Shown here: positions 25,652 through 50,832 of the stretch, in pieces | How positions within the stretch are numbered: position 1 is the stretch's first letter | Layout: the number at the start of each line of letters is the position of its first letter | NCBI GenBank assembly: GCA_033664045.1 | Contig: GCA_033664045.1_3674.1 | DNA from: a phage | Direction: 5' to 3' (one strand) | Length of the DNA: 64,000 nucleotides | Translations under genes and position numbers: made by a program | The notes under the pieces: model-generated | Seen by the model: only the letters and a program-made list of their open reading frames with translations | What the model was told of the DNA's origin: nothing | The model's database searches: none

Positions 25652-25993
25652 ATGACTACTATGACCGCCACAGAAAAAGCTATGCAGATCGCCGCGCTGA
25701 AAAAACAGATCGCAGACCTTGAGAACAAGATCGATAACTTTGAAATCGACGAGGACAAGTACGACGAAAACTATGACGAATGGTTAGACGAGATCTACGG
25801 CGAAATTATGATCGGAAACATTTCTTTTCTTCCGTCGCGTATCCTCAAGGAGCTGGATCCTATCGCTTACCGCTGCGGATTTAGCGACTACATCGACAGC
25901 TTGGATATTGAGGACGATGAAGAGTACCAAGAATTACAGACAGAGCTCGAAGAAGTGAAAGAAGAGCTTGCAGAACTGGAAGAAAACGAGTAA
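25652..25993 (+). CDS. hypothetical highly acidic protein
   Basis: promoter TTGACA-N16-TATACT; RBS AAGGAGA; roughly 30 percent D+E with coiled-coil-like C-terminus. Confidence 0.55.
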   Translation: MTTMTATEKAMQIAALKKQIADLENKIDNFEIDEDKYDENYDEWLDEIYGEIMIGNISFLPSRILKELDPIAYRCGFSDYIDSLDIEDDEEYQELQTELEEVKEELAELEENE

Positions 25994-31683: not shown

Positions 31684-31968
31684 ATGAAAAAGATGATCGC
31701 AGTGGTTGCCCTGGTTATTGGACTTAATGCGCCTGTAATGGCTAAAGAGCTGGCAAAAGAGGTAGATCTAACTGATATCCATGCCGTCAATCAAATCGGT
31801 GTTACTTATCGGTTATGCCTTGCCGCAAAAACTTTCCAGGATGGCACAACAGAGTACTACGGATTCGAAGGCATCCGGTGCGGTGAGCTTGCTCGCGACC
31901 TTAAAGAAGATCCAGACCTGGAGGATCTGCCGATAACCGTAAACGGGAAAACTTACGTGAACCGTTAA
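31684..31968 (+). CDS. hypothetical secreted protein
   Basis: signal-peptide-like MKKMIAVVALVIGLNAPVMA; RBS AAAGAGGA. Confidence 0.5.
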   Translation: MKKMIAVVALVIGLNAPVMAKELAKEVDLTDIHAVNQIGVTYRLCLAAKTFQDGTTEYYGFEGIRCGELARDLKEDPDLEDLPITVNGKTYVNR

Positions 31969-31970
31969 CC

Positions 31971-32105
31971 ATGAGAAAGATAATTATCACCATGGGGATC
32001 GTGGCGGGATCGCTGGCGCTCTTTCTCCTTATGGTTAGGTATGTGCTGATCAGTATTGTCCTGACAGTCAGTGATCTATTGGAAACGGTTGGCACCTTGT
32101 TTTAA
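31971..32105 (+). CDS. hypothetical hydrophobic peptide (44 aa)
   Basis: not in track; starts 2 nt after upstream stop; weak RBS. Confidence 0.3.
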   Translation: MRKIIITMGIVAGSLALFLLMVRYVLISIVLTVSDLLETVGTLF

Positions 32106-33730: not shown

Positions 33731-34179
33731 TTTGCTCTTTTCCTACCACAAACGGCCCAGCCTGGCAAGTGGAATAATTGACTAGCCATCAATCCCGCAC
33801 ACTGTACAAATATACATATAAAATAGATATTGCATAACCTTTCATTGTGTGGTAGCAGGGCCATTTTTACACGTTTTTCCTTCCAAAATTGCACGTAATG
33901 CAGCTATTGCACAAAATTTAACCTGATGCACATCTTCAGTATACTGTCAACAATTAAAAACCCTTATAAGTCATACACTTACACAAACCAAAAAGCGTGT
34001 CCTACGTGAAAAATCGGGTGTAACTATAGCCGACAGATCTCAGAATCCACGTACGATCACCATTCTATAGCCTGCAAAGTATTTATTCCAACCACAGAAT
34101 AACGGAATAGTCAATACCTGTATAAAATAATTATTCGTATAAACTGCATAACATAAACCCGCCCAGGTGTCAACATTTT

Positions 34180-35040
34180 TCGTAAACAGTCCGAAATTGT
34201 CACGGTGAGTTATCATAAATAGAGAAATATTTAGTCGTCTAATGTTTACTGTACATTACTATACTGACTGGAATCATTAGATGACTAAGAGAAAGATAAG
34301 AAATAATTAACAATGTAAGTATTTTACCTGCAACAATAAGGCAACTATGCAAACGAATGTCATGGCGCGACGGAGTCGCGACATAATATAAAAGCAGTAA
34401 CCATCACCCCCGTGATAGTTTGTCTGCAAACTATTAATCAGATCATAGTTGCCTTGTATTTAGTTAATCATGACATAACAAGCAAGGCAACTATAGATCT
34501 TCTAATAGTTGCCCTGCTTTTATATTATGTCATCTATTGTAAATCAGTTAATTGTTTTCATGCAAACGAATGTCATGGCTTATCATTTTTGAGTAAATAG
34601 TTTGTTTGTAAACAATCTATACGTAAACAGTTAACTATGTAAACTATTAGATATGTAAACTATTGGTTATGTAGACTATCAGGAATGTAAACAGTAAAGC
34701 GAGTGAATAGTGAGAGCGTAAACAGTCAGGCATGTCAATTATGTTTAATGTGCCCAGTATGTCACTATTGTGTCTAAAGTGTCATAGTATGTCACAGTAT
34801 GTCAGACAAGTTTTTCTCCTCTTTGTCAAGTGCTGCATGAAAAATTTACAAACTGGTATGGTAGCATTTTTGCGGCCCTGTTTACATTCAGTAATGTATG
34901 TATAATCCTTGTTGTGTGGGCGTTTGGACGTCTAGACGGTTGGAAGTCTGCAGGTCAATATCTAATCTATTGGCTGCTAACTATATCCCACACAAATAGT
35001 AAGAAATATGATTGTTATATGCGTAAACAGTAACTCATGT
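34180..35040. repeat. iteron-rich non-coding region
   Basis: at least 8 copies of GTAAAC(A/T)(G/A)T; 5 copies of (A)GTATGTCA at about 10-11 bp spacing (34757-34805); inverted ATAGTTGCC/GGCAACTAT pairs; palindrome cgcgacggagtcgcg. Confidence 0.55.
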
Positions 35041-36222
35041 TATCAATCCCTGTATGTATCGCCAGTGGTGCGCATAATGGGTATTATGTTAAATTGCCCG
35101 TAATGATAACTATTCTCACAATGATAGGTATTCTCATTCACCCCCACAAGATAGGTTGCAAATGTTGTGCCACTGTGTGAACGGCCTCACCTATTAATTT
35201 GCCTCACTGCCTCGATATTTGAGAATTGTTATAAGAATGAGAAGTATTCCCATTCCGTCCGCCTGGCAGCACTCCAGTCGCTACGGCTCATAACAGGGCA
35301 GAACTGGGTCCATTCAGATATTTCTGGCTGGCTCTTCAGGTCTGTGTGGGAAAAGCCAACCTCTCCTGCGGCGGGGAGGGGGTCAATTAAAAAATTTACG
35401 TGGTATATGTAGCGCTGTTCAGGTAAGGCATGTATTATGGGATGAAATCCTCTTCAGGCAATGATATTTGTGGGTGTGATATTTGCTGGAAAGCCAGATA
35501 TGACGGGACTCCCGGCGGGGCAGGGGTGGTACAGACAGGGAAAATATGGAGGATGTGGTTGGGTGAATTGATCAGACAGGTAGAGTATGGAATATGTTAC
35601 AAGTATGTTAAATATGAAGGGTGAATATCTGTAGGATTTGTGTGTAAAATCAAAGACTTAAGTAGTGTTGTGGTATTTTCTATAAATAATTCAAGTTTAA
35701 TAGGTAATATTTGTCTCTATCCACTTTGTGTGGTAAACAAATTCAGATGAGATTGGTTTACAAGTGTATACATAATATACAAATTAAAGATACAAGAAAC
35801 CCCCCTCCCCCTTCGGCTACCATTCACCTTTTCCTCTGACTGGTACTTAAACACTTATTCAGACTCTTCAGGTTATCACCCATATATCATATGGCAGTGA
35901 CTGGTGTCCTCCGGCCCCTCTTTCGTCACCCGTCCGCTTCGCCATGCTAATGCCATAGCCAAATGTTCGGTTGTTCACCCTGTTCACTCAGGTGTATCTC
36001 CATACCCCTTCAAACCGAAGAGAACAGAAAACCCGAATTACTCGGTAAAAGAAAAGAGAAGAACTTAATTTTATCAAGATAGGCAAGAATGTCAAGGCAT
36101 GACTGCTCACTAAACAAGCAAACAGTCATGTGCGGTAGGTAAGTGATTGTGGTTGTAGGAAATTTAATTGAAAGATGTGTTATAGGTGCTTCCAGCACTT
36201 TAGCCTGGCAGCTAATTGTGTG

Positions 36223-46187: not shown

Positions 46188-46715
46188 TCACATCTCCTGG
46201 TTCAAACTGTTAAGAAAGGATACTCTGTCTTCGCTATTTTTCTCTGTGATATACCCTCCAAACATGGAAAGAATCACATGCTTCAAGTAATCTTTTTCTG
46301 GGTCGCTTAGATGATTGCGTGGCTTTATTTCCACATCATGGTAGTCATACAATCCACAATCATGATACCCCCAGTATCGACACACCTCAATACTGATCGG
46401 GAGTTTTTTGTCACACGAAACTTTCCAACGGGTTACGTTGTTACCAGGGGATAAATCCTCGCCCACCTTCACGAATGACAAATCGTAATTCATAAACTTT
46501 TCGTACAGTTTAAGTACAAAACCCTCGACCTGTGGAGAAACACCAGCCACTAGCTGGGCGTATCTATATTTACTTTCAATAATTTTTCGGCGCTTTGCTG
46601 TAAGGTTTATTGCAGCAATTTGACTCTCTGAGTATCTCCAAGGCTTGTATATAAATGCTTTCGGGTCTTTATCGCCATAAAAATCTTTCCAATCAACTAG
46701 CAGCATACCTGTCAC
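46188..46715 (-). CDS. hypothetical protein
   Basis: co-directional ORF. Confidence 0.5.
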   Translation of the reverse strand: MTGMLLVDWKDFYGDKDPKAFIYKPWRYSESQIAAINLTAKRRKIIESKYRYAQLVAGVSPQVEGFVLKLYEKFMNYDLSFVKVGEDLSPGNNVTRWKVSCDKKLPISIEVCRYWGYHDCGLYDYHDVEIKPRNHLSDPEKDYLKHVILSMFGGYITEKNSEDRVSFLNSLNQEM

Positions 46716-46984: not shown

Positions 46985-47383
46985 TTACTGAACAGAGCGC
47001 GGAGCTGGGAAGGATAACTCTTCTAAAGAGAAGATTTCATTCCCCACAATCCATGTTGCAGGATCATCTGGGTTTACTGGATAGATAATCATCACCTCGT
47101 CAGTGTTACATACCCGCTTTTTACCTGTGGAGTCATCAGCAACCAGCATGCGCGGTTCTTCAGAAATGCACAGGTAGCCTCCTCGGCCCACTGTTCCTTC
47201 CACAGGATCTTGTCCTTTGATCACGATGATTATCTTCTCTCCTGAGGCGATATTACCTTGCACACTCACCGTTTGACCAACCTTGGATGTGCCAATCTTA
47301 GTGACTTCGAACATTACATCCCGAATTACTGTTGCATAATCGCCAGACACTTTCTTACCTTCTTTAGTGATCTCAATCTTCAT
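46985..47383 (-). CDS. hypothetical protein
   Basis: MKIEITK N-terminus. Confidence 0.5.
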   Translation of the reverse strand: MKIEITKEGKKVSGDYATVIRDVMFEVTKIGTSKVGQTVSVQGNIASGEKIIIVIKGQDPVEGTVGRGGYLCISEEPRMLVADDSTGKKRVCNTDEVMIIYPVNPDDPATWIVGNEIFSLEELSFPAPRSVQ

Positions 47384-47646
47384 ACACTGGGCTCCTTAAA
47401 TGAATCTATGTAATCAATTAAATCCCAAGCATCCCTATGACCTGTCAGAGGGTATACTTCTCCAAGAGGGATCATAGCAATAAGTCTATCAAAAACCCAA
47501 TCTGGACGCAACATTTTATGGTGATATTCCCACTCACCTTCTACAGATTTTTTCTGAGTAATCAGGATCTCTGTGTAGTGTTTCGCCTGTCTTGAGTAAA
47601 TTGAAAATGACTTGTACATAAATGACCCCCTTGTTGAGAACAACAA
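47380..47646 (-). CDS. hypothetical protein
   Basis: overlapping junction. Confidence 0.45.
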   Translation of the reverse strand: MLFSTRGSFMYKSFSIYSRQAKHYTEILITQKKSVEGEWEYHHKMLRPDWVFDRLIAMIPLGEVYPLTGHRDAWDLIDYIDSFKEPSV

Positions 47647-47653
47647 TACACAA

Positions 47654-47968
47654 CTACCAAGTTACTGTCAAGTAGGCAACAGTGTTATTTTTCTCTGGAG
47701 AGATGCCAACAACATCTACCTGCAGACCTCCTGCCCTCAAATCCCCAACAATATGCGGGAAGTAATCTGAGAGATGCGAGGGTAGATTTATCGAAAATCC
47801 GCATCCCAGAAAGCCTGCTAACGCTTTATTTTGTATCTCCCCTACAATCGCATCATAAATGGAGTTAAGCTCGTCAGGGAGCGTTACAGGACGTTTTAGC
47901 GCTAACTGGTGTAATTTGTCCTTAGCACTCATTTTCATTTCAGGTCTACCTCTGGGGGTGCCAACCAC
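47654..47968 (-). CDS. hypothetical protein
   Basis: co-directional ORF. Confidence 0.45.
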   Translation of the reverse strand: MVGTPRGRPEMKMSAKDKLHQLALKRPVTLPDELNSIYDAIVGEIQNKALAGFLGCGFSINLPSHLSDYFPHIVGDLRAGGLQVDVVGISPEKNNTVAYLTVTW

Positions 47969-48468
47969 ATAAACGGCGGCAAGTCTAAACGGTTTTTCTT
48001 ATCCCACACAAAATATGCATATGCTTGCCCGTCAGTTCTGCCATTTGATTGAAATGATGGACGCTTAGATATTGTGATCACAGTGGTAGGTGCATTATCA
48101 AGCCACCATTCAAATCTGGCTTTGCTTTCCAGAAAATTAAGACGCAAAAGCATAATAACTACGTCAGCATCTTTCAACGCCTTGTCTACGAACTCACGAG
48201 CCAGACTGTACGGTGGGTTGGTGATAATACAGTCAACATGGTTGTATTCTGTATTCAGATAGTCAACACCTTCTTGGATTTCTCCCCATGCAGATCCTAA
48301 CGGCATACGGGAGTAGAACACACCTGAGGCACTATTCCTGCAAGGCTCTAAGTAGGTCCAGTCCTCTGGGAACGGAATAAGGTCATACAGCCCTTCTGCA
48401 CACCACTCCGGTGTCACATACTCATCGTATGCGTTACGTTGTTCATCAGGTTTTCTAGCACAAGTCAT
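47935..48468 (-). CDS. DNA N6-adenine methyltransferase (small phage Dam-like)
   Basis: catalytic motif IITNPPYSLA (NPPY) in a 177-aa protein. Confidence 0.65.
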   Translation of the reverse strand: MTCARKPDEQRNAYDEYVTPEWCAEGLYDLIPFPEDWTYLEPCRNSASGVFYSRMPLGSAWGEIQEGVDYLNTEYNHVDCIITNPPYSLAREFVDKALKDADVVIMLLRLNFLESKARFEWWLDNAPTTVITISKRPSFQSNGRTDGQAYAYFVWDKKNRLDLPPFMWLAPPEVDLK

Positions 48469-48519
48469 GCAAATCTCCAGATCATAAAAGCCCTCCGAAG
48501 AGGGCTTTAGAATTAATGT

Positions 48520-49569
48520 TTAAGCTTCTTCGACAATTCCTGCACCCAGGATTTTTTCATTGAGCTCTTTTGCTGTTTTAATGATATTGTCCATCAGACG
48601 CTTGCGGGTCTTATCTTTCACCTTAATCTCTTCACCGCCGTTCAGAGTAGTCTTCAATTGAGACAGAATATCCTGAAGTTCGACGACAGAGAATCGCTGC
48701 AGATCTTCTGAAGTAATTTCACCCAAGGCGATCCGGACGGTCTCGCCACTTTCCATCTGCAGATTCAGGAACACAGTGTGAACATCGCCTTTCGTACCAT
48801 TTGCTTTTGCAGACTCAACAGCATGAACCAGCTCGTCCAGAGATGTGCATTGGTGAATCTCTGGCAGGCCTGCTTCGCCTAGCACACCTTCTTCATCACT
48901 TTTTGCCAAAAGCTTTTTCGGTTTCTGTCCATTCTGAATGCGCTGAATGTTTTCATCGTCCAGAATGATAGCACCAGTTCTAGATGCCAGCTCTTCTCCA
49001 TCTAACCACACTTCACCGCCAGCTGTAATGGATGCGATCTCATCTTCTGTTAGCACCCCACCGTAGTATTTTTCAATCAGGCGTTCAAAACGTTTCTTCC
49101 AGTAGTTGATCTGAGTATTCATGTTCACACCGTTACCATAGGTGCCACCTTGATAGTAGTGGAACATAAACTCTGTGTCCGGAGCCACAGTGCGTTCTTT
49201 GCAACCCAGCCATAGGATTGTTCCAGCAGAGCAGCACATACCTTCAGCATGTGCAACAACGCTTGCCTGAGACTCGCGGAATGCCTGCAGATAAGCCATT
49301 GCAATGTGCACGCAACCACCAGGACTATTGATGATCACCCGAATGCTTTCTTCAGGCTGAGCCATACGGATCGTCTGCAGACGAGACATATGATCTTGTA
49401 AGTCTTCCAGATCGTCGATATAAAGAACGTGGTCAACAACAGGTGTTGGGTAGCTGTATGTCTCCATAATACCACCCGGCATACCAAACATTTTATTACT
49501 CATAGGTTCAAAACCGTTCTGTTTTTCTTTCATACCGTGTACCATGGTGCTGCGAGGTGTTAAATTCAT
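48520..49569 (-). CDS. ClpP-family (S14) serine peptidase-like protein with C-terminal extension
   Basis: INSPGGCVHIAMAYLQAF...AEGMCCSAGTILWLG...FMFHYYQGG collinear with ClpP NSPGG / GxAASMG / HQP segments; about 150 extra C-terminal residues. Confidence 0.7.
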   Translation of the reverse strand: MNLTPRSTMVHGMKEKQNGFEPMSNKMFGMPGGIMETYSYPTPVVDHVLYIDDLEDLQDHMSRLQTIRMAQPEESIRVIINSPGGCVHIAMAYLQAFRESQASVVAHAEGMCCSAGTILWLGCKERTVAPDTEFMFHYYQGGTYGNGVNMNTQINYWKKRFERLIEKYYGGVLTEDEIASITAGGEVWLDGEELASRTGAIILDDENIQRIQNGQKPKKLLAKSDEEGVLGEAGLPEIHQCTSLDELVHAVESAKANGTKGDVHTVFLNLQMESGETVRIALGEITSEDLQRFSVVELQDILSQLKTTLNGGEEIKVKDKTRKRLMDNIIKTAKELNEKILGAGIVEEA

Positions 49570-49628
49570 GAGAAATCCTTAATATTGGAAGTTGAAAGCT
49601 ATTTATTAAACCTGATTCACATTTACCT

Positions 49629-49970: not shown

Positions 49971-49999
49971 ATAATATCTAAAGCTTACCTGTTTGTCAA
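49971..49999 (-). promoter_or_regulatory. sigma70-like promoter (minus strand) TTGACA-N17-TATTAT
   Basis: minus-strand reading: TTGACAaacaggtaagctttagaTATTAT. Confidence 0.5.
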
Positions 50000-50043: not shown

Positions 50044-50832
50044 TTACTCGGAAACAGGGGTCCAAATATGATTTGCACGATCCTCGATAAGATTGAGTGC
50101 AATCTGACGACCCAACCCGGAACGAACGACATCATCTGGACTATCAAAGCTGATCATTCCAACCTCAGGATCTGGATGGCGAGTAAAGAAATCCGTCACC
50201 CATGCAAGGCCAGATTTACCAGGGATGTCACGTTGGCTATTATCGCCCATAATTACAAGGGTGGCCTGATCAGAGATCCTTGTGATAATTGACAACATTT
50301 CTTCAGGGTTAGTTTGCTGTGCCTCGTCAATCAGGACAAAGCATCGCTCATCGAAACTACGACCACGAATGCTTTCAACTTCACAAATCTCGATACGGCT
50401 GTTCTGACCGTCTCCCAGCATTGCGGCAAAAGCACCTTTGCCAACACGACGACAAATAGTGTCCATCATACTACGAAGGTAAGGCCAAAGCTTCTGCATT
50501 GACGTTCCCGGTTTGTATCCGCTTGATTTTCCGGTCTGTACATAAGGACGTGCAACAATGATCTTATCAATCTCGTTCTTACGCAGAAGATCACCTGCAT
50601 ATGCAGATGCCATGAACGTCTTACCAGACCCAAACACACCGTTTACAATAATAATCTTACGTGACCCTAGATAATCAAGATACTTTTGCTGCTTCTTATT
50701 CATTGGTCGGAGAGCTGGAGCGGTGTGCTCTCGTTCGTCAGCAAATTTCTCAGCAGCCTTGCGCAAGCGATCAGATTTGCGAGCCTCTCTAGCTTCATCA
50801 CGCATGCGTTTTGTTTCTTTAGCTCGACCCAT
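50044..50832 (-). CDS. phoH: PhoH-like ATPase
   Basis: Walker A GVFGSGKTF, Walker B FVLIDEAQ, PhoH signature IMGDNSQRD. Confidence 0.85.
   Translation of the reverse strand: MGRAKETKRMRDEAREARKSDRLRKAAEKFADEREHTAPALRPMNKKQQKYLDYLGSRKIIIVNGVFGSGKTFMASAYAGDLLRKNEIDKIIVARPYVQTGKSSGYKPGTSMQKLWPYLRSMMDTICRRVGKGAFAAMLGDGQNSRIEICEVESIRGRSFDERCFVLIDEAQQTNPEEMLSIITRISDQATLVIMGDNSQRDIPGKSGLAWVTDFFTRHPDPEVGMISFDSPDDVVRSGLGRQIALNLIEDRANHIWTPVSE

What the first reader, a model, noticed from the sequence alone, without database searches (positions are those of the whole stretch)
47935..48468. Orphan minimal N6-adenine DNA methyltransferase
A 177-aa protein with the NPPY catalytic motif (IITNPPYSLA) and no partner restriction endonuclease nearby. 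Such small phage Dam-like enzymes usually protect phage DNA from host restriction.
Basis: partly seen in the sequence, partly recalled or inferred. Interest (0 to 1): 0.45.

Follow-up and report, generated by a model that had tools for sequence, protein, structure and literature searches.

The report
Known phage GATC adenine DNA methyltransferase
This is a real, well-conserved small gene of an rV5-like E. coli phage, and a version differing by one amino acid has already been shown by experiment to methylate the adenine of GATC in phage DNA and to trigger two bacterial retron defences, so the finding is correct but not new.

Summary
The ORF at 47935..48468 (minus strand, 177 aa, IITNPPYSLA at residues 81-90) is present as described. 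It is under strong purifying selection: 22 synonymous against 1 non-synonymous codon change versus phage Bas51.

The window is an rV5-like Vequintavirus, and the gene is rV5 gp118, annotated as a DNA methyltransferase. It is 176/177 identical to bas51_0176 of phage WalterGehring (Bas51). PLoS Biol 2025 (PMC12548924) showed three things for that gene:
- Nanopore 6mA calls on virion DNA give a GATC logo.
- A T83P mutant nearly loses GATC methylation.
- D69G, D79G and T83P abolish triggering of Retron-Asa1 and Retron-Squ1.

These residues lie in, or just before, the SAM-binding and NPPY motifs I mapped here.

No nuclease lies nearby, so "orphan" holds. The anti-restriction role is not shown: Vequintavirinae are heavily restricted by EcoRI and EcoRV.

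Verdict: correct, already known, low interest.

The parts
47935..48468 (-). Coding sequence of the 177-aa SAM-dependent N6-adenine DNA methyltransferase. It is the orthologue of rV5 gp118 and Bas51 bas51_0176.
   Evidence: ORF. PHROG 799 'DNA methyltransferase', E=8e-67. 176/177 identical to bas51_0176. Synonymous to non-synonymous codon changes 22:1.
48409..48426 (-). Motif X, D15-E-Y-V-T19-P20, the 'D.Y.TP' element that precedes motif I in gamma-type adenine methyltransferases.
   Evidence: T19 is invariant and P20, D15 and Y17 are at least 90% conserved in 43 homologues. It aligns to ETP of M.TaqI.
48322..48351 (-). Motif I, L40-E-P-C-R-N-S-A-S-G49, the SAM-binding loop after strand 1.
   Evidence: E41 and P42 are at least 90% conserved. 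It aligns to LEPACAHG of M.TaqI. Strand E39-41 is present in the AF2 model.
48262..48282 (-). Motifs II-III, E63 to D69 (EIQEGVD). These are predicted contacts to the SAM ribose and adenine. D69G is a retron-escape, loss-of-trigger mutation in Bas51.
   Evidence: D69 is at least 90% conserved. It aligns to the ADFL region of M.TaqI. D69G is reported in PMC12548924.
48208..48234 (-). Strand 4 plus catalytic motif IV, D79-C-I-I-T83-N-P-P-Y87. D79G and T83P are the other two engineered escape mutations in Bas51.
   Evidence: T83, N84, P85 and P86 are invariant. The codons were read directly. T83P nearly abolishes GATC 6mA.
48475..48478 (-). GGAG ribosome-binding site, 6 nt upstream of the ATG.
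   Evidence: Sequence read.
48487..48508 (-). GC-rich hairpin AAAGCCCTC-TTCG-GAGGGCTTT followed by TATGAT. It lies between the ClpP-like gene stop and the methyltransferase start and is a likely partial terminator or RNA-stability element.
   Evidence: RNAfold gives -14.7 kcal/mol. The consensus terminator scan did not list it.
47654..47938 (-). Downstream 94-aa ORF of unknown function (rV5 gp119). Its ATG overlaps the methyltransferase stop codon (ATGA), which suggests translational coupling.
   Evidence: Junction sequence. rV5 and Bas51 annotation. PHROG 12158, unknown function. It is found only in Vequintavirinae-type phages, 190 records against 544 for the methyltransferase.
49971..49999 (-). 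Sigma-70-type promoter TTGACA-17-TATTAT. It is the likely start of the transcript that runs through the 103-aa ORF, the ClpP-like gene, the methyltransferase and the genes after it.
   Evidence: 11 of 12 consensus matches. Its position corresponds to the annotated rV5 promoter P121.

Best explanation
The gene encodes a stand-alone (orphan) SAM-dependent DNA N6-adenine methyltransferase that methylates the adenine of GATC on replicating phage DNA.

Mechanism, inferred from the fold and motifs. A single Rossmann-type catalytic domain binds SAM through motif X (T19-P20), motif I (E41-P42...G49), E63 and D69. The target adenine is flipped into the T83-N-P-P-Y87 pocket, where the methyl group is transferred to N6. 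There is no separate target-recognition domain. GATC recognition must therefore come from the catalytic domain itself or from self-association. Candidate contacts are the family-invariant basic and aromatic residues R109, R118, R136, Y150 and W155. This step is not known.

Shown by experiment for a 176/177-identical orthologue:
- It is needed for GATC 6mA in virion DNA.
- It is toxic when over-expressed in E. coli.
- It is the trigger of Retron-Asa1 and Retron-Squ1. [quoted passage not shown]

Inferred benefit to the phage: its fast-replicating DNA is fully methylated at its many GATC sites. This would block GATC-cutting restriction enzymes that are sensitive to adenine methylation, and possibly MutH- or SeqA-type recognition of unmethylated GATC.
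For: - Identity to the characterised Bas51 enzyme is 176/177. Bas51 is phage WalterGehring, MZ501111, a Vequintavirus.
- PMC12548924 reports a GATC logo from nanopore 6mA calls, near-complete loss in the T83P mutant, escape mutations D69G, D79G and T83P, toxicity, and triggering of Retron-Squ1 in its native Serratia host.
- D69 and T83 map onto family-conserved residues in motifs III and IV (T83 invariant, D69 at least 90% conserved); D79 lies just upstream of motif IV.
- The A1 profile matches the M.TaqI catalytic domain through motifs X to IV, E=5.5e-6, and also type I HsdM subunits.
- PHROG 799 'DNA methyltransferase', E=8e-67.
- GATC is not avoided in the window: 348 sites, 1.06 times the Markov expectation and 1.45 times the base-composition expectation, whereas GTAC and CTAG are depleted.
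- Purifying selection, 22 synonymous to 1 non-synonymous codon change.
Against: - No in vitro assay exists for this protein. The link to GATC rests on genetics plus nanopore base calling in one study, and I could read only the text and legends, not the figures.
- No curated model places it. The best Pfam hits are 20.1 and 19.2 bits, below their cut-offs, and NCBIfam gives nothing.
- A protein of 177 aa with no recognition domain being GATC-specific is not explained structurally.
- The anti-restriction benefit is not shown. Vequintavirinae are 'exceptionally susceptible' to the six RM systems tested, although none of those systems cuts at GATC.
Confidence: 0.9

Rival explanations
1. It is an RNA adenine methyltransferase (of the rRNA or tRNA m6A type, such as Erm/KsgA, METTL5 or TrmN6) that modifies host or phage RNA. 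On this reading the DNA annotation is an artefact of the shared NPPY fold.
Against: A point mutation in the gene nearly removes 6mA at GATC in phage DNA. The invariant motif X 'TP' aligns with M.TaqI and, from my own knowledge, is typical of the gamma-type DNA enzymes (TaqI, HsdM) rather than of Erm/KsgA. The window protein gives no Pfam RrnaAD match at E up to 10 and no qualifying NCBIfam RNA-methylase hit.
Confidence: 0.03
2. It is a non-specific or relaxed adenine DNA methyltransferase, like M.EcoGII or Hia5, as might be expected of an enzyme with no recognition domain. GATC would then be only its preferred site.
For: There is no target-recognition domain: the whole 177 aa is the catalytic domain. 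The enzyme is toxic when expressed in E. coli even without a retron, which would fit off-target methylation at high dose.
Against: The methylated sites give a 'distinct GATC motif'. Phages carrying the gene are strongly restricted by EcoRI (GAATTC) and EcoRV (GATATC). Both enzymes are blocked by adenine methylation within their sites (my own knowledge), so adenines there are evidently not methylated.
Confidence: 0.05
3. The activity is GATC methylation, but its selected role is not defence against restriction. It instead serves the phage's own DNA transactions: avoiding MutH nicking or SeqA binding at unmethylated or hemimethylated GATC, or marking DNA for replication or packaging, as Dam methylation does for the phage P1 pac site.
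For: Vequintavirinae show no effective RM protection in the laboratory. GATC is frequent in the window, one site per 184 bp, and occurs in local clusters. The T83P phage loses GATC methylation even though the study's phage assays used E. coli MG1655, which is dam+ to my knowledge. Host Dam therefore does not seem to keep up with phage DNA (my inference). The P1 pac and MutH facts are from my own knowledge.
Against: The methyltransferase point mutants plate as well as wild type on cells without a retron (text for Fig 4c-d). Any such role is therefore dispensable in the laboratory. No test has been reported on mutH or seqA backgrounds, or on hosts with GATC-cutting enzymes.
Confidence: 0.3

Closest known systems
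Bas51 (Escherichia phage WalterGehring) N6 adenine methyltransferase bas51_0176; PMC12548924, PLoS Biol 2025
   Same: It is the same protein: 176/177 identical, with only V174A different. It has the same length, the same neighbours (ClpP-like gene upstream, 94-aa ORF overlapping downstream) and the same residue numbering as the published mutants D69G, D79G and T83P.
   Different: Nothing of substance differs. The window comes from another Vequintavirus isolate; 23 of 534 nucleotides differ, 22 of them in synonymous codon changes.
M.TaqI and other gamma-type N6-adenine DNA methyltransferases (type I HsdM, MmeI, BseCI, CamA)
   Different: M.TaqI has a C-terminal recognition domain of about 180 aa and an insertion between motifs IV and V (from the M.TaqI sequence as I recall it). 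This protein has neither: 177 aa against 421. The Pfam models for this group are not reached (Eco57I 13.3 bits against a 25.3 cut-off).
Phage Dam family PF05869 (T1 Dam, HP1/HP2 Dam)
   Same: These are also small orphan phage N6-adenine methyltransferases acting at GATC (specificity from my own knowledge). The two share motif IV and the helix after it. Foldseek finds T1-type 'DNA N-6-adenine-methyltransferase' models at TM about 0.55-0.62.
   Different: The window protein scores 19.2 bits against the 28.1 cut-off, whereas T1 Dam scores 236 bits. hhalign of the family profile against T1 Dam aligns only 31 columns, at 67% probability. It is therefore a separate family.
E. coli Dam and T4 Dam (alpha-type, Pfam PF02086 MethyltransfD12)
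   Same: They have the same chemistry and the same target, m6A at GATC (my own knowledge for Dam and T4 Dam; for this enzyme).
   Different: There is no detectable sequence relationship: no PF02086 hit even at E up to 10. The motif order differs, and those enzymes carry a dedicated DNA-recognition domain (my own knowledge).
Phage methyltransferases as retron triggers (for example the phage K42 Dcm that triggers Retron-Ec86; bioRxiv 10.1101/2023.08.16.553469)
   Same: A phage-encoded DNA methyltransferase is sensed by a retron, and escape mutants map to the methyltransferase gene.
   Different: That case involves a C5-cytosine enzyme at CCWGG. Here it is an N6-adenine enzyme at GATC, and the retrons are Asa1 and Squ1.

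Membership tests
Gamma-type (M.TaqI-like) N6-adenine DNA methyltransferases | Linear motif order X, I, II, III, IV, with a (D/N)PP(Y/F) motif IV after the SAM-binding motifs. | tested here: met
   D.Y.TP is at residues 15-20, EPC...G at 41-49, E63, D69 and TNPPY at 83-87. These align to the M.TaqI motifs in the profile search at E=5.5e-6.
Gamma-type (M.TaqI-like) N6-adenine DNA methyltransferases | Class I Rossmann-like methyltransferase fold closest to the DNA adenine methyltransferases. | tested here: inconclusive
Gamma-type (M.TaqI-like) N6-adenine DNA methyltransferases | A target-recognition domain C-terminal to the catalytic domain. | tested here: not met
   The protein ends about 20 residues after the last core strand. 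The M.TaqI match covers only the catalytic domain. Nearly all of the top 150 family representatives are 142-271 aa.
Gamma-type (M.TaqI-like) N6-adenine DNA methyltransferases | Reaches the curated score of a Pfam model of the group (Eco57I PF07669, EcoRI_methylase PF13651). | tested here: not met
   13.3 bits against 25.3, and 20.1 bits against 26.4.
Pfam PF05869 'Dam' (phage T1/HP1-type N6-adenine methyltransferase) and TIGR01712 | Scores above the curated cut-off and aligns over the whole domain. | tested here: not met
   19.2 bits against 28.1. TIGR01712 gives 16.1 against 97. hhalign to T1 Dam covers 31 columns only. The positive control, T1 Dam, scores 236 bits.
Pfam PF02086 MethyltransfD12 (E. 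coli Dam, T4 Dam) | Detectable match to the family model. | tested here: not met
   It is not among the hits at E up to 10.
PHROG 799 (phage 'DNA methyltransferase') | Significant full-length match to the family profile. | tested here: met
   E=8.1e-67, 227 bits, residues 1-172.
Dam-type activity (m6A at GATC in DNA) | GATC adenines in DNA are methylated in dependence on the enzyme. | not testable with these tools
   This is published for the 176/177-identical Bas51 orthologue: a GATC logo that is nearly lost in T83P (PMC12548924; identity). Here I could show only that GATC is not avoided in the window.
Orphan (solitary) methyltransferase | No cognate restriction endonuclease gene adjacent. 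| tested here: met
   The eight flanking ORFs have either no Pfam hit, or ClpP-like protease and PhoH. Their PHROG hits are 'unknown function', 'ATP-dependent protease' or 'virion structural protein'. The rV5 and Bas51 annotations show no nuclease within about 4 kb. A small unrecognised nuclease among the hypothetical proteins cannot be fully excluded.
RNA adenine methyltransferases (Erm/KsgA PF00398, TrmN6, METTL5) | Match to a curated RNA-methyltransferase model. | tested here: not met
   There is no RrnaAD hit for the window protein and no qualifying NCBIfam hit (HemK family 12.2 against 115.5). The resemblance is fold-level only.

The most novel reading that the evidence does not exclude
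The 177-aa enzyme achieves 4-bp (GATC) specificity with no target-recognition domain at all. It would do so by a mode not yet seen in solved DNA methyltransferase complexes, for example an obligate homodimer in which one catalytic domain reads the palindrome for the other, or recognition through the invariant R109/R118/R136/Y150/W155 surface. It would then represent a very large phage-borne family that no Pfam or NCBIfam model covers. That family has about 1,900 clusters at 50% identity with E<1e-30, and two of the top representatives (P0161, P0231) match the profile in two stretches, possibly tandem copies.
Probability: 0.25. Interest if true: 0.45.

Novelty: already known. Interest (0 to 1): 0.15.

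Why it matters
The gene matters mainly as a well-supported annotation. rV5-like phages are common therapeutic and typing phages. Their DNA carries phage-made m6A at GATC, which affects how it behaves with DpnI/DpnII-type enzymes, with methylation-aware sequencing and with retron defences that sense methyltransferases.

What remains open is structural and ecological rather than a matter of discovery. It is not known how so small an enzyme reads GATC. It is also not known what advantage outweighs the cost of triggering retrons, given that these phages are otherwise poorly protected against restriction. Finally, the family lacks a curated Pfam or NCBIfam model, which explains the inconsistent names in public records: 'hypothetical protein', 'TrmN6', 'dimethyladenosine transferase' and 'DNA methyltransferase'.

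Tried and rejected
1. Partner or specificity subunit. The 94-aa ORF whose ATG overlaps the methyltransferase stop codon (47654..47938) looked like a possible recognition subunit. It occurs in only 190 phage records, all Vequintavirinae-type, against 544 records for the methyltransferase across many taxa. It has no Pfam hit. The co-occurrence therefore looks like plain synteny, and I dropped the idea.

2. Membership of the phage Dam family PF05869. This was rejected.

3. Single-sequence search of the PDB. It gave only noise; a family profile was needed.

4. Domain fusions as functional clues. The long family members were either proteins matching the profile in two stretches, possibly tandem copies (P0161, P0231), or a fusion with an HNH homing endonuclease (P0258). 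They were not informative about the target.

5. The ClaI evidence for 'Dam methylation' of the relative phage CB7 (PMC7344957). I judged it uninformative, because an enterobacterial host should have its own Dam (my own knowledge).

6. Literature searches on 'Vequintavirus methyltransferase', rV5 methylation, enzymes lacking a recognition domain, and phage methylomes. These gave only annotations. The decisive paper came from the search 'Vequintavirinae' plus '6mA'.

7. Rfam and tRNA scans of the window. Nothing was found.

Full report
**1. The observation**

It runs from 47935 to 48468 on the minus strand, starts with ATG, and encodes 177 aa containing ...VDCIITNPPYSLAREF.... The NPPY codons (AAC CCA CCG TAC) lie at 48208..48219. 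A GGAG ribosome-binding site sits 6 nt upstream of the ATG.

It is a real gene under purifying selection:
- Against the rV5 orthologue, 11 of 534 nucleotides differ, giving 10 synonymous and 1 non-synonymous codon changes.
- Against the Bas51 orthologue, 23 nucleotides differ, giving 22 synonymous and 1 non-synonymous changes.
- The protein is at least 99% identical in 109 phage records, although the surrounding DNA is mostly 90-95% identical.

**2. Where the window comes from**

Megablast of 47000-49600 finds 120 phage records. The best are Escherichia phages MiataMamis (98.1%), LL12 (97.3%) and other rV5-like myoviruses of the genus Vequintavirus. In rV5 the gene is gp118/ORF123, annotated 'DNA methyltransferase'.

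The gene order on the minus strand is:
- PhoH-like gene (50044..50832)
- sigma-70-type promoter (49971..49999, matching the annotated rV5 promoter P121)
- a 103-aa ORF
- ClpP-like protease gene (48520..49569)
- a GC-rich hairpin (48487..48508, -14.7 kcal/mol)
- the methyltransferase gene
- a 94-aa ORF whose ATG overlaps the methyltransferase stop codon (ATGA)
- further small ORFs of unknown function

**3. What kind of protein it is**

No curated model claims it. The best Pfam hits are EcoRI_methylase (20.1 bits, cut-off 26.4), the phage Dam family PF05869 (19.2 bits, cut-off 28.1) and Eco57I (13.3 bits, cut-off 25.3). NCBIfam gives nothing near threshold. PHROG 799 'DNA methyltransferase' matches at E=8e-67.

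A search of 5.8 billion proteins gave 312 homologues, most of those listed without any precomputed Pfam domain. A profile search of 1.84 billion cluster representatives gave 1,878 hits at E<1e-30 and 11,272 at E<1e-10. Nearly all of the best hits are 142-271 aa, so this is a large family of stand-alone small proteins.

An alignment of 43 members shows these conserved positions:
- Invariant: T19, T83, N84, P85, P86, L107, R109, R118, R136, D146, Y150, W155.
- Nearly invariant: D15, Y17, P20, E41, P42, D69, R11, P137, F139.

A profile of this alignment matches the catalytic domain of M.TaqI from motif X (ETP) through motif I (LEPACAHG), the ADFL region and NPPY, at E=5.5e-6. It then matches ErmAM and ErmC' and type I HsdM subunits.

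The protein is therefore an adenine-N6 amino-methyltransferase catalytic domain with the gamma-type motif order and nothing else. It lacks the C-terminal recognition domain of M.TaqI. From the M.TaqI sequence as I recall it, it also lacks M.TaqI's insertion between motifs IV and V. The fold alone does not separate DNA enzymes from RNA m6A enzymes. The invariant 'TP' of motif X points to the DNA branch; that last point rests on my own knowledge of these families.

**4. Experimental evidence from the literature**

The search 'Vequintavirinae' plus '6mA' led to PMC12548924 (PLoS Biol 2025). That study reports the following:
- Three of these mutations (D69G, D79G, T83P), rebuilt in a clean background, abolished defence by both retrons.
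- Native nanopore sequencing of Bas51 DNA gave 'a distinct GATC motif' for 6mA.
- The enzyme was toxic when expressed in E. coli.
- The enzyme triggered Retron-Squ1 in its native Serratia host.

Bas51 is Escherichia phage WalterGehring, MZ501111, a Vequintavirus. Its gene bas51_0176, 'putative N6 adenine methyltransferase', sits in the same context as in the window. It is 176/177 identical to the window protein, with V174A the only difference.

The published mutant positions match what I mapped independently. D69 is the nearly invariant motif III aspartate. D79 starts the strand leading into motif IV. T83 is the invariant residue before NPPY.

I could read only the text and legends, not the figures. 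There is no in vitro assay.

**5. What the window adds**

GATC is not avoided in the window. There are 348 sites in 64 kb, which is 1.06 times the Markov expectation and 1.45 times the base-composition expectation. GTAC (0.64) and CTAG (0.54) are depleted. That fits a genome whose GATC sites are not under restriction pressure, but it is weak evidence.

**6. Is it orphan?**

Yes, as far as these tools show. The eight flanking ORFs give either no Pfam hit, or ClpP-like protease and PhoH. Their PHROG hits are 'unknown function', 'ATP-dependent protease' or 'virion structural protein'. The rV5 and Bas51 annotations list no nuclease within about 4 kb; the nearest are homing endonucleases inside nrdD in Bas51.

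**7. Does it protect against restriction?**

[quoted passage not shown] In the raw-data sheet, one replicate row for Bas51 shows EOP 0.56 on EcoKI, 1e-4 on EcoRI and no plaques on EcoRV.

This argues against non-specific adenine methylation, because both EcoRI and EcoRV are blocked by adenine methylation in their sites (my own knowledge). It limits any protective role to enzymes that cut unmethylated GATC. No such host was tested.

The methyltransferase point mutants plate like wild type on retron-free cells. The gene is therefore dispensable in the laboratory, and its only demonstrated phenotype is a cost to the phage, namely triggering retrons. Sensing of phage methyltransferases by retrons has precedent, for example the phage Dcm that triggers Retron-Ec86.

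Alternative benefits remain possible and untested. These include escaping MutH or SeqA action on unmethylated GATC, or marking DNA for replication or packaging.

**8. Comparison with known families**

The enzyme works like Dam, but it is not a member of either Pfam Dam family:
- PF02086 (E. coli and T4 Dam) gives no hit.
- PF05869 (T1/HP1 Dam) is below its cut-off. A profile comparison with T1 Dam aligns only 31 columns around motif IV, whereas T1 Dam itself scores 236 bits on PF05869.
- Foldseek against viral models finds T1-type enzymes only at TM of about 0.55-0.62.

It shares its motif order and best fold match with the M.TaqI group but lacks that group's recognition domain. How it reads GATC is unknown. 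Two of the top representatives match the profile in two stretches, possibly tandem copies, and the target is palindromic, so a dimer is plausible. That is inference only.

**9. Leads that went nowhere**

- The 94-aa ORF that overlaps the stop codon is not a conserved partner outside Vequintavirinae (190 records against 544).
- The 226-227-aa versions in Klebsiella and Erwinia phages only carry a low-complexity tail that overlaps the next gene in another frame.
- Rfam and tRNA scans of the window were empty.

**10. Verdict**

The gene is already annotated in more than a hundred genomes, and an orthologue differing by one residue has been characterised experimentally. Novelty: already known. Interest: low (0.15). 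The residual open questions are the recognition mechanism of this family, which has no recognition domain and no Pfam or NCBIfam model, and its selective benefit.

Noticed in passing
window 33900-36100: About 2 kb with no ORF of 70 aa or more fully inside it. It holds 16-nt tandem units (34607-34692), a cluster of (C/T)GTAAAC(A) words (34181, 34607, 34622, 34638, 34654, 34686, 34717, 35022) and three GTATGTCA words at 34757-34804. It looks like an iteron or regulatory region, possibly an origin or an early control region.
   Followed up: partly
window 46188..46715 (-): A 175-aa ORF that is 51% identical to bas51_0171, annotated 'putative glycosidase'. In PMC12548924, a premature stop (R87*) in that gene abolishes defence by Retron-Asa1, making it a second trigger five genes downstream of the methyltransferase. 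It has no Pfam hit and belongs to PHROG 13467, of unknown function. It is far more diverged between isolates than the methyltransferase.
   Followed up: partly
window 47654..47938 (-): A 94-aa ORF of unknown function whose start codon overlaps the methyltransferase stop codon (ATGA), which suggests translational coupling. It is conserved only in Vequintavirinae-type phages.
   Followed up: yes
window 48487..48508 (-): A stable hairpin (AAAGCCCTC-TTCG-GAGGGCTTT, -14.7 kcal/mol) lies between the ClpP-like gene and the methyltransferase start. It may attenuate read-through from the promoter at 49971..49999.
   Followed up: partly
public records MG0656xx (matches to window 47000-49600): Eighteen records named 'Campylobacter phage', with host given as C. 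jejuni for sixteen of them, match this rV5-like coliphage region by megablast. The one listed (phage C2) is 95.5% identical in DNA, and several encode a 100% identical methyltransferase. Their host assignment is probably wrong, or the stocks were contaminated.
   Followed up: no
whole window: Among 4-bp palindromes, CTAG (0.54 of Markov expectation) and GTAC (0.64) are the most depleted. GATC (1.06) and TGCA (1.11) are not depleted. GATC also forms local clusters, for example at 25687-25856 and 31909-32073.
   Followed up: no
homologues P0003, P0004, P0012, P0031 (Klebsiella, Erwinia and related phages): In these relatives the methyltransferase ORF is 226-227 aa long. It carries a charged, low-complexity C-terminal tail of about 55 aa that overlaps the gp119-like gene in another frame. 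This is either a lost stop codon or a real extension.
   Followed up: partly
window 48520..49569 (-): A 349-aa protein in which only residues 59-168 match the ClpP protease model (PF00574, E=1.6e-12). It lies among early or metabolic genes rather than in the head-gene module, and it has a long C-terminal extension with no Pfam family match.
   Followed up: no
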